DNA of 64,000 nucleotides from Microbotryum violaceum. Taxonomy: Eukaryota. The stretch's first letter is position 1; each line of letters begins with the position of its first letter. Location: the NCBI GenBank assembly GCA_001244265.2, contig CDLV01000008.1, forward strand, positions 434,001 through 498,000, given 5' to 3'. Made by a program: the position numbers and the translations under genes. This document shows positions 46,151 to 50,130 of this stretch, piece by piece. The notes under the pieces are model-generated. The model had not been told where the DNA came from. It did no database searches and saw only the letters and a list, made by a program, of their open reading frames with translations.

Positions 46151-46166
46151 GTGTCGAGCTCAGTGG

Positions 46167-46219
46167 TGTTGGTATCAACGATGATCCCGAAATGATCAAC
46201 AAAAGAAGAAGAACGACTG
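46167..46219 (-). repeat. 3' fragment (last 53 bp) of the tRNA-bearing LTR, inverted
   Basis: Reverse complement reads CAGTCGTTCTTCTTCTTTTG...ACCAACA, matching the LTR 3' end at 46323-46375. Confidence 0.92.
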
Positions 46220-46256
46220 TGTTGAAGGTGTTAGTAGACCTTGCACTGATATCAGG

Positions 46257-46327
46257 GGCCGGATAGCTTAGTGGTCAAAGCTTTTCCGATTAATGGAAGC
46301 GACCCAGTTTCGACTCCTGGTCCAGCC
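46257..46327 (+). ncRNA. tRNA-like element in the 5' LTR (B box with one substitution)
   Basis: A box TAGCTTAGTGG; B box GTTTCGACTCC versus consensus GGTTCGANTCC; cloverleaf stems; downstream TTTT. Confidence 0.75.
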
Positions 46328-46660
46328 GTTCTTATTCTTTTGTTGATCATTGCGGGATCATCGTTGATTCCAACATGGTAGCGTCTGTCGGTTAATAAGA
46401 GAAAAGGGGCGGCTGTCTCCGAACCATGCTGTAGAGCAAGATGCCAAAGCAAGGTTCTAAGGGGAAGTGTGAGGATCTATTATAGAACCTTTCATGTGAA
46501 TCTTTCCAATGACGCTGCACAAAGTTACCGGAGCTGCCGCAGAAGCTTGACACAGAGTCCAATTTAGACTTAGAGTCGACGCATTGCAATAGCCTGGCAG
46601 CAGTGCAAAGGTCTAAGGGGAAGTGTTGAAGGTGTTAGTAGACCTTGCACTGATATCAGG

Positions 46661-46731
46661 GGCCGGATAGCTTAGTGGTCAAAGCTTTTCCGATTAATGG
46701 AAGCGACCCAGGTTCGACTCCTGGTCCAGTC
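46661..46731 (+). ncRNA. tRNA-like element in the 3' LTR (intact A and B boxes)
   Basis: GGCCGGA-TA-GCTT AGTGGTCA AAGC-T-TTTCC GATTAAT GGAAG-CGAC-CCAGG TTCGACT CCTGG-TCCAGTC folds as a cloverleaf with a non-canonical anticodon loop. Confidence 0.8.
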
Positions 46732-46884
46732 TGTTGGAATCAGCGATGATTCCGAAATGATCAACAAAAGAAGAAGAACGGCTGAACCAGGAGTCGAACC
46801 TGGGTCGCTTCCATTAATCGGAAAAGCTTTGACCACTAAGCTATCCGGCCCCTGATATCAGTGCAAGGTCTACTAACACCTTCA
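46732..46884 (-). repeat. Nearly complete inverted copy of the tRNA-bearing LTR (first 3 nt absent at the LINE junction)
   Basis: Reverse complement of the 46220-46375 LTR with few substitutions. Contains a tRNA-like unit at 46780-46850 (-). Confidence 0.93.
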
Positions 46885-46885
46885 G

Positions 46886-48450
46886 TTTATTATTATTTGA
46901 TAGACTTCATTAACAGCATAATTATATTAATACCTCGAAATCTTCGGAAAAGTCGGAGGGAATGCTGTTACGCACACTGGCAGAAGCCAGTATTGTAGGA
47001 CTCATTGACCCTGAACCAGGATCAACCATACCCACTAAAACCCCCTTTGGTGTCTTACAGAGACACTAGGCGACCCTTGGACTCCTGGATAGAGGCTCGA
47101 AGCCCCTCGAACTCCGTTTCGGTGATCGGTTCCAAAAGATCCGACGAGAATCGACGACGGCGACACAGCTTCCAGATCGAGTGAAAGAAGAGGACTCGTA
47201 GTTCGACAAGTCGACGTTCCGAGCGAGACACGACCGGGCATACAAAGTCCACAAAGACTGGGTGGGGGGTCGGGCACAGAGCAGACCAGAGGCGCCGGGC
47301 AAATGGGCAGCCGACCGCGAGGTGAACCAGGCACTCGGGTGCTTCCGAGAGGCACATCACACAGGAGGTAGATCGATTGTTGGCATGTGGGCTGGTTGGG
47401 GAGGCGACTTGGCTTCCCGGATGGAGGGACCCCAGGGAGAGAAGATGGCCCGTATCCTCGGTGTCCGAGTGAACCCGGCGAACCTTGCGCAAAGCCTTCC
47501 ACCAAGCGTTCCAGCGTTGCTCAGGCAGATCGAATACCTTCTGGTGTCCCTTGGGGAAGATAGGGGGGAAGATGAAGACTTGGTGGCGTTTGGACGCGTT
47601 CACAAACGAAGACGGGGTCATCACCTCGCCATCGGGCCCTCGAAAAAGCGTCGGGTTTACCGAGAGTTGTATTCCGTGGCCCGCTGGAAGATAGAGTACG
47701 TGCGTCGCCCATTGCTCGAGGTTCTGGCTCTTGGAGAGTTCCGGGGATTGAGCGTGGTCACCGACGCCCAGGCTTCGAAGTATCGGACCCAACGAGCAGG
47801 AAGAAGTTTTGTCGTTTTTCTCACCGCATGGTCCCACTTTGGGGGAGGATGGCAAAAGTACGCCCACCAGATCCAAATCCAAGGGCAACCATGCTGGTTG
47901 GGGGCCGGTCTGGACAAGGTGAAAGGGGTTGGTTCGTTTGGTGCCTGGAGGCGGATGCGGATGTCGAAGAGGTGGCGTGTGAAGCAGCCGTCCGGGGCCC
48001 GGAGCTGGAAGACCCACTTCGCGTGATCGATTACTAGACGCCGAGGCATATCAATCAAACCGAAGCCGCCGTGATCAAGAGGGGCGCAGAGGCGCGACCG
48101 GGAGACCTTCGGACGTCGCTGAGTACCATCCGAAGCTCGACCGTGAATGGCGAGCATGGCGGCCTCCTCGATCTCCTTGACAACGCTCTTGGGGGCGGGA
48201 AGGAATCGGCTGTAGTACAAGATCTTTGTGTAGCAGTAGATGTTGATGATCGAACACTTGGCTGCATATGGGAGATCGTACATCGGAATTGAGCGTATCC
48301 GAGCGATGGTCGAGGCCTTGACATCTTCCCAGCCCGCATCCTCGGCGATCTCCACCCCGACCTGAATACCAAGGTAGCGAAACTGCGAATCGCTGAGACG
48401 CCAGGTCCCGAGATCTGGGGCGAAAAGTGGAGGACGGTATGACCGAATAG
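46886..48450 (-). mobile_element. 5'-truncated LINE family A, copy 2
   Basis: End of RT (QFRYLGIQ), GGFGLID, CVMC...HLAVGC, the same 3' UTR as 24257-25618, and a (TAA)n-like tail. Confidence 0.92.
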
Positions 48451-49181
48451 CTAACTGTATGCGCGTGCCAATACAACTTGCTCAGCATGGATCGGCCATA
48501 CACCATCCGTCGCGTCCGCCGAGTCTTGAATGCAAAGGCCTTCACCAACACGATCAGTTTCAGGGACTCGCTGCAGCCCGACGATATCAAGGAATTCTGG
48601 AAGGGGGTCACCTCGAAGGCATTGACGGCGAGGGAACGCGAGGTGTGGTTCAAGCTCGTCAGAAACTTCACCCCGACTCGGAGTCTGTAGTTTCATCAAA
48701 AGCACGACGACTCGCCCGCGTGCCTCGTCTGTGGAGCGCCCAAGGACGATCGGGAGCACTACTTCTTCGACTGAGTTGACTCTGGGAACGTTTGGATCGC
48801 GGCAAGGAGCGTGATCTGCGACGCACTGGGGCTCGACACGATCGACAACACGCATCACACGGCTGTTCAACGCATGTTCGGACTTCCGAAGCTCAAGGCC
48901 AGTCTGCGCGATCAAGAAGGAGCGGGGAGGACGATCGAAACGTTCACCGGGCTGGTCTTGGAGATGATCAGCAGCGGGAGGTGGGGGATGCAGAAGTGGG
49001 GGACGAGGATGGAGGGTGTTGGGAGGAGGAGGATCATCTTGGAGGAGAGGTTGAAGCTGAGGGCGGGAGGAGCTTGGGGGAGGAGAGGGCAGTAGAGGCT
49101 GGGTTCGACTTTCCCCCCACCACCACCACACACACACACCAAATTCTCGTGACATCATTTTCTCCTACTGTACAATAAATA
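48451..49181 (+). mobile_element. Degenerate 3' fragment of a second LINE family (B)
   Basis: One frame reads FWKGVTSKALTAREREVWFKLVRNFTPTRSL*...CLVCGAPKDDREHYFFD*...VW, a zf-RVT region with two in-frame stops. It ends near AATAAATA. Confidence 0.78.
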
Positions 49182-50130
49182 GATCGCTTTCATCTTTCAT
49201 TTGTTACAGGTTCACCGATGCGGATTATGGACCATCTCGCGATTTGGCGTCGACTCGGTGTGGCTCGCGCTCTTCGGCTTCGGGGTTCTGAGTCAAGGGA
49301 GGGACCAGCGGACACAGGCAGAAAGTCGGCTTTGAGGGGCCAGGGACTGCCGATGGGGAGGTCTTGAGGGACCTTCACCGCGTCTTGTTGTGACTGAGCA
49401 GAGACTTGGAGCGTCGAGGGTCGTGGTGGTTGCGCAGTCGTGCTCTTGTCTTCGTCTCGACCGAGTGGGAAGTGGCTGTGGGGTGGGCCTTCTGTCGTTA
49501 GTACATTTCTTTTCTTTCTTTTTATCTTCATCTCTCTTTCTCTCTCTCATTAGTCTCCTGGGGGGGAGCAACCGCTTGGCTAGGGCATTTGAATCCGAAT
49601 CTCGGATTGGTGGACTTGGCTCGTTTCTCGCACTTTTGCGGGCGGTTTGTGTTATCATCGTAGTCTTCCATCTAGTTTTCCGTAGGCCAAAACAGGGGGA
49701 ACAGGAACTGGGGGCAATATGATGAACGTTTTCTACAAAAATAAACGTGCCGACGTCGTCAAGGCAAGAGGCGCGCGCGCCGATCGTGTAAATCCGTCGC
49801 AGCGGCTGTTATGGCTTTGGCAGGACCCCCGAAAGCCCAGCCAGAGGTAAGCTCGACGCCCCTCAACCCGCTTGCAAAGACGTTTCGAGCGAAATCGTCA
49901 GACCCCTCAAGACGCTCTCAGTAGTCTGTTGGAGAACAAGTCAAAATGATGCAGTCAGACACCGCTTGAACCGGCATCTCGTAGTAGTGCATGACATCAG
50001 ACACTCCCGTCAAGTTATACATACATCTGTCGGAAAATCTGTGCCAACACGCTGAGTGCCGCTGAGATCCACCAAAATGGGCCGAGTTCCCTCTGAACCT
50101 GCCATCAAGTGGAGGTATTATGCGAGAATA

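What the first reader, a model, noticed from the sequence alone, without database searches (positions are those of the whole stretch)
46167..46884. Self-insertion into the tRNA-like acceptor stem plus inversion, recorded by a split 5-bp TSD
The 3' LTR stops at ...CCAGTC (46731) and is joined to the CA end of an inverted LTR. Its missing 3' part lies inverted at 46167-46219, begins with the same CAGTC (GACTG at 46215-46219 on +) and is joined to the TG end of another LTR. Two integrase-type ends therefore meet the same duplicated 5-mer. This fits an opposite-orientation insertion into a sibling LTR followed by a flip between inverted repeats, or an autointegration-like event. It suggests the family may target its own Pol III unit.
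Basis: partly seen in the sequence, partly recalled or inferred. Interest (0 to 1): 0.7.

Follow-up and report, generated by a model that had tools for sequence, protein, structure and literature searches.

The report
Mini-retrotransposon nested in its own sibling
In an anther-smut fungus, one copy of a small tRNA-carrying jumping element landed backwards inside a sister copy and part of the pair later flipped; this is real but looks like an ordinary accident, with no sign that the family aims at its own tRNA-like part.

Summary
A 156-bp LTR is split at positions 104-108, in the acceptor stem of its tRNA-like unit. A CA end and a TG end meet the same duplicated CAGTC, which carries a rare variant (1 of 69 other copies).

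New here: the outer 5-bp duplication AGTGG (46162-46166 and 48426-48430) lies beyond a later LINE. The host is Microbotryum and the family is a Helenus-type TRIM, with an 18-nt iMet primer site, 5-bp TSDs and a Copia partner. The scan already noted Helenus-type LTRs on other DNA of this genome.

Variants best fit this history: a full-length element was hit backwards in its 3' LTR by a copy that became a solo LTR, then about 400 bp inverted between the opposed LTRs.

Self-targeting is not supported. One clear self-insertion (plus one unclear) was found in 72 loci, against 0.01-0.17 expected by chance. No host tRNA was found within 1 kb, and 14 other loci have LTRs broken at scattered positions.

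Four other loci have two like ends inside one TSD, so an origin inside the particle stays possible. Orientation was not checked with long reads.

The parts
46162..46166 (+). Left copy of the outer 5-bp target-site duplication (AGTGG)
   Evidence: single-copy host flank to the left
46167..46219 (-). F: LTR positions 104-156 (3' part of the split LTR), CA end facing the host flank; T107 and private A150
   Evidence: present in 4 of 4 runs
46215..46219 (-). Inner TSD copy 1 (CAGTC on -, GACTG on +), joined to the TG end of A
46220..46375 (+). A: complete 156-bp LTR; tRNA-like unit 46257-46328 (box B carries a private G>T change at LTR 89)
46376..46393 (+). Primer-binding site, 18 nt complementary to the 3' end (with CCA) of the genome's tRNA-Met(CAT) with an initiator-type T loop
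46376..46623 (+). 248-bp non-coding internal region with two polypurine tracts; the first is followed by an alternative LTR start (TGTGAG, 46468) that begins the long solo LTRs elsewhere in the genome
46624..46731 (+). B: LTR positions 1-108, ending in inner TSD copy 2 (CAGTC, 46727-46731)
46732..46884 (-). C: LTR positions 4-156, CA end joined to B; B and C form a near-perfect hairpin with arms of about 103 bp
46885..48423 (-). 5'-truncated LINE-like element (about 98% to other copies; at least 40 in the genome) inserted at LTR position 3/4 of C; LINE label from my reading of the translation and tail, Pfam gave no hit
48426..48430 (+). Right copy of the outer TSD (AGTGG)
48470..49745 (+). Second, independent LINE-like fragment with its own 6-bp TSD (CGTGCC), about 40 bp past the outer TSD

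Best explanation
An untargeted nested insertion plus one recombinational inversion. (1) A full-length Helenus-type TRIM integrated on the minus strand, duplicating AGTGG [shown: outer ends and TSD]. (2) Its 3' LTR acquired C107T [inferred]. (3) A second copy, integrated by a Copia-type integrase, landed in opposite orientation at LTR 104-108 and duplicated CAGTC [shown: two integrase-type ends on one 5-mer]; it was later reduced to a solo LTR, as most family copies are [inferred]. (4) That solo LTR and the 5' LTR of the first element were then 156-bp inverted repeats about 360 bp apart. A crossover, best placed at LTR 115-136, inverted about 400-440 bp (from about 46334-46355 to about 46752-46773) [inferred]. 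(5) A LINE inserted at the outer TG end [shown; order relative to step 4 unknown]. A less parsimonious variant has a solo LTR as target, a full element as incomer, and a flip of the 48-bp loop between B and C. I give the main version about 0.5 and the variant about 0.15.
For: Inner TSD with the shared rare allele. Outer TSD and normal outer ends. With the crossover at 115-136 the two sister LTRs differ only at rare sites (103, 107, 150, possibly 133), and all three common family polymorphisms (115A, 137A, 145C) fall in the incomer. The 115A+145C combination exists in 2 of 67 other copies. The loop-flip variant needs sister LTRs to differ at all three common sites. Solo LTRs are the usual state: 34 short LTRs carry a 5-bp TSD (28 exact, 6 with one mismatch). 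Family copies sit among other repeats, and the LTR is broken in 14 other loci at positions from 31 to 139. Chance expectation of a self-hit is 0.01-0.17 for 60 insertions, under assumed target sizes and an assumed 1-6-fold bias to repeat-rich DNA.
Against: Under uniform insertion one self-hit has a chance of only 1-3%, and L023 is a second LTR-on-LTR inverted junction. A, B and C differ by at most 2 nt over LTR 4-103, while only 5 of 62 other full copies lie within 1 difference of B. A random chromosomal target would usually be less similar, unless conversion homogenised the arms. The allele argument rests on 8 sites, and the crossover was chosen to fit (2 of 9 intervals tried give the clean result). 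L076 has an LTR broken at 105, one base from this site, by non-family DNA. The un-inverted state was not seen in any strain.
Confidence: 0.65

Rival explanations
1. Made in one step inside the particle, with no flip. Two co-packaged TRIM cDNAs pair their ends crosswise. The U3 end of cDNA 1 and the U5 end of cDNA 2 integrate into the 3' LTR of cDNA 1; the two leftover ends then integrate the composite into the chromosome; cDNA 2 later shrinks to a solo LTR (C).
For: It yields exactly the observed order with both TSDs (my derivation). Four other independent loci carry two like ends inside one 5-bp TSD: L023 (U3+U3), L063 and L071 (U3+U3, one end a Copia LTR), and L051 with its duplicate L056 (U5+U5). 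So aberrant cDNAs do integrate in this family. It explains the near identity of A, B and C over 4-103. Ends from separate molecules are documented for the DNA transposons piggyBac and Sleeping Beauty (PMC3952818, passages).
Against: A and B/F would be sister LTRs of one cDNA, yet T107 must already differ at the moment of integration, and 115 differs too. Reverse transcription normally gives identical LTRs (PMC6894440, passages). The L071 junction is internal with 3-nt microhomology, which suggests template switching, not integrase. Searches returned no paper describing such a product.
Confidence: 0.13
2. The nested insertion is real but the inversion is an assembly artefact: the segment between inverted repeats was mis-oriented.
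For: Arms of 103-153 bp at 96-99% identity are hard for short reads. No listed public contig spans them.
Against: The assembly has 20 contigs for 33 Mb and keeps 99.9%-identical duplicates apart, which suggests long reads (inference; the read type is unknown). The allele-preferred switch lies in an identical stretch of only about 20 bp, too short for a typical k-mer mis-join.
Confidence: 0.1
3. Self-targeting: the helper integrase is tethered to the Pol III machinery on the family's own tRNA-like unit and inserts just downstream of box B.
For: The site lies 6-10 bp after box B, in the acceptor stem. One self-hit is unlikely under uniform insertion (1-3%). L023 has a junction at LTR 28, about 10 bp upstream of the tRNA-like unit, and L076 is broken at 105.
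Against: Only 3 of 147 family LTR ends abut family sequence abnormally: 2 here, 1 in L023. Host tRNAs were found in 2 of 72 loci, at 1193 and 3493 bp; 71 of 72 loci had at least 800 bp on each side. A box B motif occurs in 2 of 111 junction flanks: this locus itself and one other that is not a tRNA, against 0.37 expected. Family TSDs are diverse.
Confidence: 0.07
4. Classical autointegration: one cDNA formed an inversion circle by attacking its own 3' LTR at 104-108, and the circle recombined into a genomic solo LTR within the 53-bp segment 104-156.
For: It gives the observed order (my derivation). Inversion circles are abundant for the Arabidopsis element SISYPHUS (PMC7197481, passages).
Against: It needs T107 asymmetry inside one cDNA, an attack only 48 bp from the attacking end (Sleeping Beauty ends rarely hit their own inverted repeats, PMC3952818; an analogy only), and a crossover in the shortest available homology.
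Confidence: 0.05

Closest known systems
Helenus (TRIMp3), fungal families; Kojima 2024, PMC10886601
   Same: Non-coding element under 1 kb; tRNA-like unit with boxes A and B in each LTR; PBS and PPT; 5-bp TSDs; many solo LTRs; the PBS start TGGTAGCG occurs 13 times in the paper's sequence file; Copia dependence.
   Different: The paper reports none in Microbotryum. This family has two PPTs giving short (156 bp) and long (about 311 bp) LTRs, and forms direct chimeras with a Copia element at the shared PBS. The parts I read describe no self-nested or inverted copies.
Tandem-array TRIMs, including two inverted Zma-SMART TRIMs in one TSD; Gao et al. 2016, PMC4717578 section 8
   Same: A composite of same-family TRIM parts, with inverted copies inside one 5-bp TSD, checked by PCR.
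   Different: No split LTR with an inner TSD is described there; those LTRs carry no tRNA-like unit.
Autointegration inversion circles (SISYPHUS and Ty1; PMC7197481 passages)
   Same: A CA end and a TG end joined in opposite orientation to a site within the element.
   Different: Those are extrachromosomal dead-end circles; this structure is chromosomal with intact outer ends and an outer TSD.
Pol III-targeting retrotransposons (Ty1: PMC7459421, listing and start of abstract only; Ty3 recalled)
   Same: One insertion touches a tRNA-like Pol III unit.
   Different: Those insert upstream of host tRNA genes; this family shows no association with host tRNA genes and the hit is inside the 3' stem.

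Membership tests
Helenus (TRIMp3) | Two LTRs with TG...CA ends around a short non-coding interior, total under 1000 bp | tested here: met
   156 + 248 + 156 bp; no ORF of 150 aa or more within the element; a second two-LTR copy, with a truncated 5' LTR, in L031
Helenus (TRIMp3) | tRNA-derived sequence in the LTR with box A (TRGCY...YGG) and box B (GGTTC) | tested here: met
   ARAGORN calls in A, B and C; box B at LTR 88; family copies also score as RF00005
Helenus (TRIMp3) | PBS complementary to a host tRNA directly after the 5' LTR | tested here: met
   18 of 18 nt to the 3' end plus CCA of tRNA-Met(CAT) in L141
Helenus (TRIMp3) | PPT directly before the 3' LTR | tested here: met
   AAGGGGAAG before B; 21 LTR 5' ends abut internal sequence in normal orientation
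Helenus (TRIMp3) | 5-bp TSD (fungal families) | tested here: met
   34 short LTRs in 72 loci, 28 exact and 6 with one mismatch, 3 of them sharing one flank; inner and outer TSD here
Helenus (TRIMp3) | tRNA-like unit is not a working tRNA | tested here: inconclusive
   A at position 33 and a mismatch in the acceptor stem; anticodon calls vary among copies (tta, tga, ttg, tgg, tca, atg); no RNA data examined
Helenus (TRIMp3) | Mobilised by a Copia element | tested here: inconclusive
   Chimeras with an RVT_2-encoding element joined at the shared PBS (L078, L079, L071) point to co-packaging; trans-mobilisation not shown
Helenus (TRIMp3) | Transcription by RNA polymerase III | not testable with these tools
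   Also unvalidated in the paper itself
Pol III-targeting retrotransposons (Ty1/Ty3 type) | Most insertions lie next to Pol III genes at a preferred distance | tested here: not met
   No host tRNA within 1 kb in 72 loci; no box B enrichment in 111 junction flanks
Autointegration inversion product | Both element ends are consumed at one internal staggered site | tested here: not met
   One TG and one CA end meet the inner TSD, but a further TG and CA end meet an outer TSD; an extra step is needed

The most novel reading that the evidence does not exclude
Very short TRIM cDNAs often pair ends from two different molecules in one Copia particle, so that one end pair integrates into the sibling cDNA and the other pair carries the composite into the chromosome. 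This locus (U3+U5 crosswise) and L023 (U3+U3) would be fossils of that route, and the other like-ended insertions related by-products. Self-insertion would then be built into the particle, with no need for Pol III targeting.
Probability: 0.13. Interest if true: 0.6.

Novelty: new member of a known kind. Interest (0 to 1): 0.27.

Why it matters
As an ordinary case it is a fully resolved record of nested insertion and inversion, and it warns that these LTRs give false suppressor-tRNA calls. It extends Helenus to Microbotryum and points to its Copia helper through direct chimeras, where the founding paper relied on PBS and internal similarity. If the in-particle route were true, it would show that integrase pairs ends across cDNA molecules in vivo and that such products survive in genomes.

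Tried and rejected
- Functional ochre suppressor tRNA: unlikely; A33, an acceptor-stem mismatch and unstable anticodon calls.
- Source tRNA of the tRNA-like unit: no clear parent among the 37 host-type tRNA calls compared; best scores 52-58 against 121 for a family copy. The RF00005 search scored only 63 of about 950 candidates, so the host set is incomplete and tRNA proximity was judged by ARAGORN on the fetched loci instead.
- A first motif search for the initiator tRNA found a non-tRNA, because an intron splits the anticodon arm; a second motif found it.
- Pre-insertion allele from paralogues of the left flank: only 5 partial matches at 69-78% over about 150 bp, away from the site.
- Public contigs (4 of 22 listed runs): no joint showing an empty site, a LINE-less allele or the other orientation. 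Contigs break at these repeats and most pieces were not displayed, so this is no evidence either way. The joint 46979 to 46732 in two runs is read as another locus (an LTR inside a LINE copy); not verified.
- Pfam gave no family for the LINE ORF pieces, the left-flank ORF or the gag-like ORF of L078.
- An excess of variants in the 3' part (7 in 159 bp against 2 in 306 bp, Fisher p = 0.009) is post hoc and is largely absorbed once common polymorphisms are taken as inherited.
- L077 (a pattern hit with 2 mismatches) had no LTR match and was dropped. Six loci that re-fetched the same places (L014, L015, L016, L017, L028, L029) were dropped before the count of 72.
- Literature searches found no report of a self-nested Helenus or of crosswise cDNA end pairing in LTR retrotransposons; most subscription papers are outside the library.

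Full report
Observation. The window holds four pieces of one 156-bp LTR: A (46220-46375, +, complete), B (46624-46731, +, positions 1-108), C (46732-46884, -, 4-156) and F (46167-46219, -, 104-156). B and F overlap by five bases, CAGTC.

The outer boundary. C lacks its first three bases because a 5'-truncated LINE-like element fills 46885-48423 (about 98% to other copies). Two bases past its end stands AGTGG (48426-48430), the 5-mer that precedes F at 46162-46166. A second LINE-like fragment follows with its own TSD. The LINE labels come from my reading of tails and translations; Pfam gave no hit. So the composite has one normal CA end and one normal TG end on an outer TSD, and another CA and TG end on an inner TSD: two integrase events. 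The left flank is single-copy. Flank plus F is present in 4 of 4 public runs laid, from 4 studies, and one contig runs 28 nt past the F|A junction (4 of 22 listed runs; one may be the source of this assembly).

The family. A window protein matches Microbotryum saponariae at 98%, the next genus at 80%. Patterns found 76 LTR 5' ends (control 1) and 61 3' ends (control 0). All were fetched, giving 72 distinct loci after dropping six re-fetched places and one false hit; five of the 72 share flanks with another, so about 67 are independent. Thirty-four short LTRs have 5-bp TSDs. The PBS pairs over 18 nt with the 3' end of a tRNA-Met(CAT) that has an initiator-type T loop (the T-loop motif is recalled). 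Two PPTs give short and long LTRs. These features match Helenus (PMC10886601; I read parts 1-4 of 6 and searched the supplement), which reports none in Microbotryum. Earlier notes of this scan had reached Helenus for other loci of this genome; I had that reading from then on. An element with an RVT_2 domain shares the PBS and forms chimeras with the TRIM (L078, L079, L071), so it is the likely helper.

Test of self-targeting. Of 147 family LTR ends, 3 abut family sequence abnormally: two here and one in L023. ARAGORN found host tRNAs in 2 of 72 loci, at 1193 and 3493 bp. A box B motif occurs in 2 of 111 junction flanks, this locus and one non-tRNA, against 9 of 2674 background tiles. The LTR is broken in 14 other loci at positions 31-139; where examined the intruders include mitochondrial-like DNA, a MITE-like element, a 7.6-kb insert and a Copia LTR. 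The expected number of self-hits is 0.01-0.03 under uniform insertion and up to 0.17 with an assumed sixfold bias to repeat-rich DNA. One hit is thus uncommon but not extraordinary, and it was picked after the fact. Against this reading: L023 is a second inverted LTR-on-LTR junction (at position 28), and L076 is broken at 105.

Mechanism. A plain nested insertion would leave the incomer's two ends on one element and the target's halves colinear; here they are exchanged, so an inversion or an equivalent step is needed. I compared four histories at the eight variable sites. (i) Target = 3' LTR of a full-length minus-strand element, incomer now solo, inversion between A and C. With the crossover at 115-136, the sister LTRs differ only at rare sites and the common polymorphisms 115A, 137A and 145C all fall in the incomer; 115A with 145C is seen in 2 of 67 other copies. 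T107 simply arose before the second insertion. (ii) Target = solo LTR, incomer = full element, flip of the 48-bp loop between B and C: the sisters differ at all three common sites. (iii) Crosswise pairing of ends from two cDNAs, no flip, and (iv) an autointegration circle recombined into a solo LTR: both need T107 to differ between the two LTRs of one fresh cDNA, which are normally identical (PMC6894440, passages). History (i) is the most economical, but it rests on eight sites and a fitted crossover (2 of 9 intervals tried).

What keeps the rival alive. Four other independent loci carry two like ends within one TSD: L023, L063, L071, and L051 with its duplicate L056. These most simply formed before integration. 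A, B and C are also unusually alike over 4-103 (5 of 62 other copies are as close to B). Inverted TRIMs in one TSD are known from maize (PMC4717578, passages and section 8), inversion circles from Arabidopsis (PMC7197481, passages), and ends from separate molecules from DNA transposons (PMC3952818, passages). Searches found no account of a self-nested Helenus or of crosswise cDNA pairing. Papers from searches not named above were seen only as listings with the start of the abstract.

Verdict. Self-targeting is not supported. The element is a new family of a known kind and the event most likely ordinary. The orientation of the middle segment remains unchecked by long reads.

Noticed in passing
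L023:1466-1656 (G000:C8, near 431221-431401): LTR 1-28 joined to the CA end of a complete inverted LTR; both TG ends face out inside one TSD (ACAAG). Either a cDNA-level inverted junction or a fold-back template switch at the terminal repeats.
   Followed up: partly
L051:1200-3261 and its duplicate L056: Two LTRs with their PPTs back to back (arms of about 180 bp), both CA ends facing out inside one TSD (GGGAC); the centre is filled by about 1.7 kb of other repeat DNA. The locus is duplicated at 99.9% on two contigs.
   Followed up: partly
L071:2630-3088 and L063:1353-2250: Inverted chimeras with a long TRIM LTR start at one end and a Copia 5' LTR at the other, each inside one TSD (CTCGT; GTTGT). 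The L071 junction has 3-nt microhomology.
   Followed up: partly
L078:678-3740 and L079:873-2700 (G000:C12, about 500 kb apart): TRIM LTR + PBS + gag-like sequence, and Copia RT/RNase H + Copia LTR + PBS + TRIM interior + TRIM LTR. The two composites share the flank 5-mer GACCT, which suggests an exchange or inversion between them. They point to the helper Copia.
   Followed up: partly
L046:1540-1690: A 151-bp AT-rich insert at LTR position 34/35 that reads like the start of mitochondrial atp9 (recalled resemblance, not searched).
   Followed up: no
L052:1518-1909 and L064:909-8563: Two different inserts (a 390-bp MITE-like foldback; 7.6 kb) at the same TA in box A, LTR position 51-53.
   Followed up: no
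L076:1527-1577: LTR 105-156 only, preceded by non-family DNA that further on matches the Copia interior; the break is one base from the site in the window.
   Followed up: partly
L033, L035, L036, L052: One old solo LTR with TSD AACTC is carried in four places inside a larger repeat, so it was copied as a passenger.
   Followed up: no
L084, L098, L100 (G000:C2, C8): AT-rich intronless tRNAs that look mitochondrial within nuclear contigs; possible NUMTs.
   Followed up: no
window:44000-46160 (- strand): An uncharacterised gene-like region with five partial paralogues; a possible ATG lies about 14 bp from the outer TSD, so the stack of four insertions may sit in its 5' region.
   Followed up: partly
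L135-L140 (G000:C3:177590-211057): A motif recurs at about 5.8-kb spacing, showing a large tandem repeat array.
   Followed up: no
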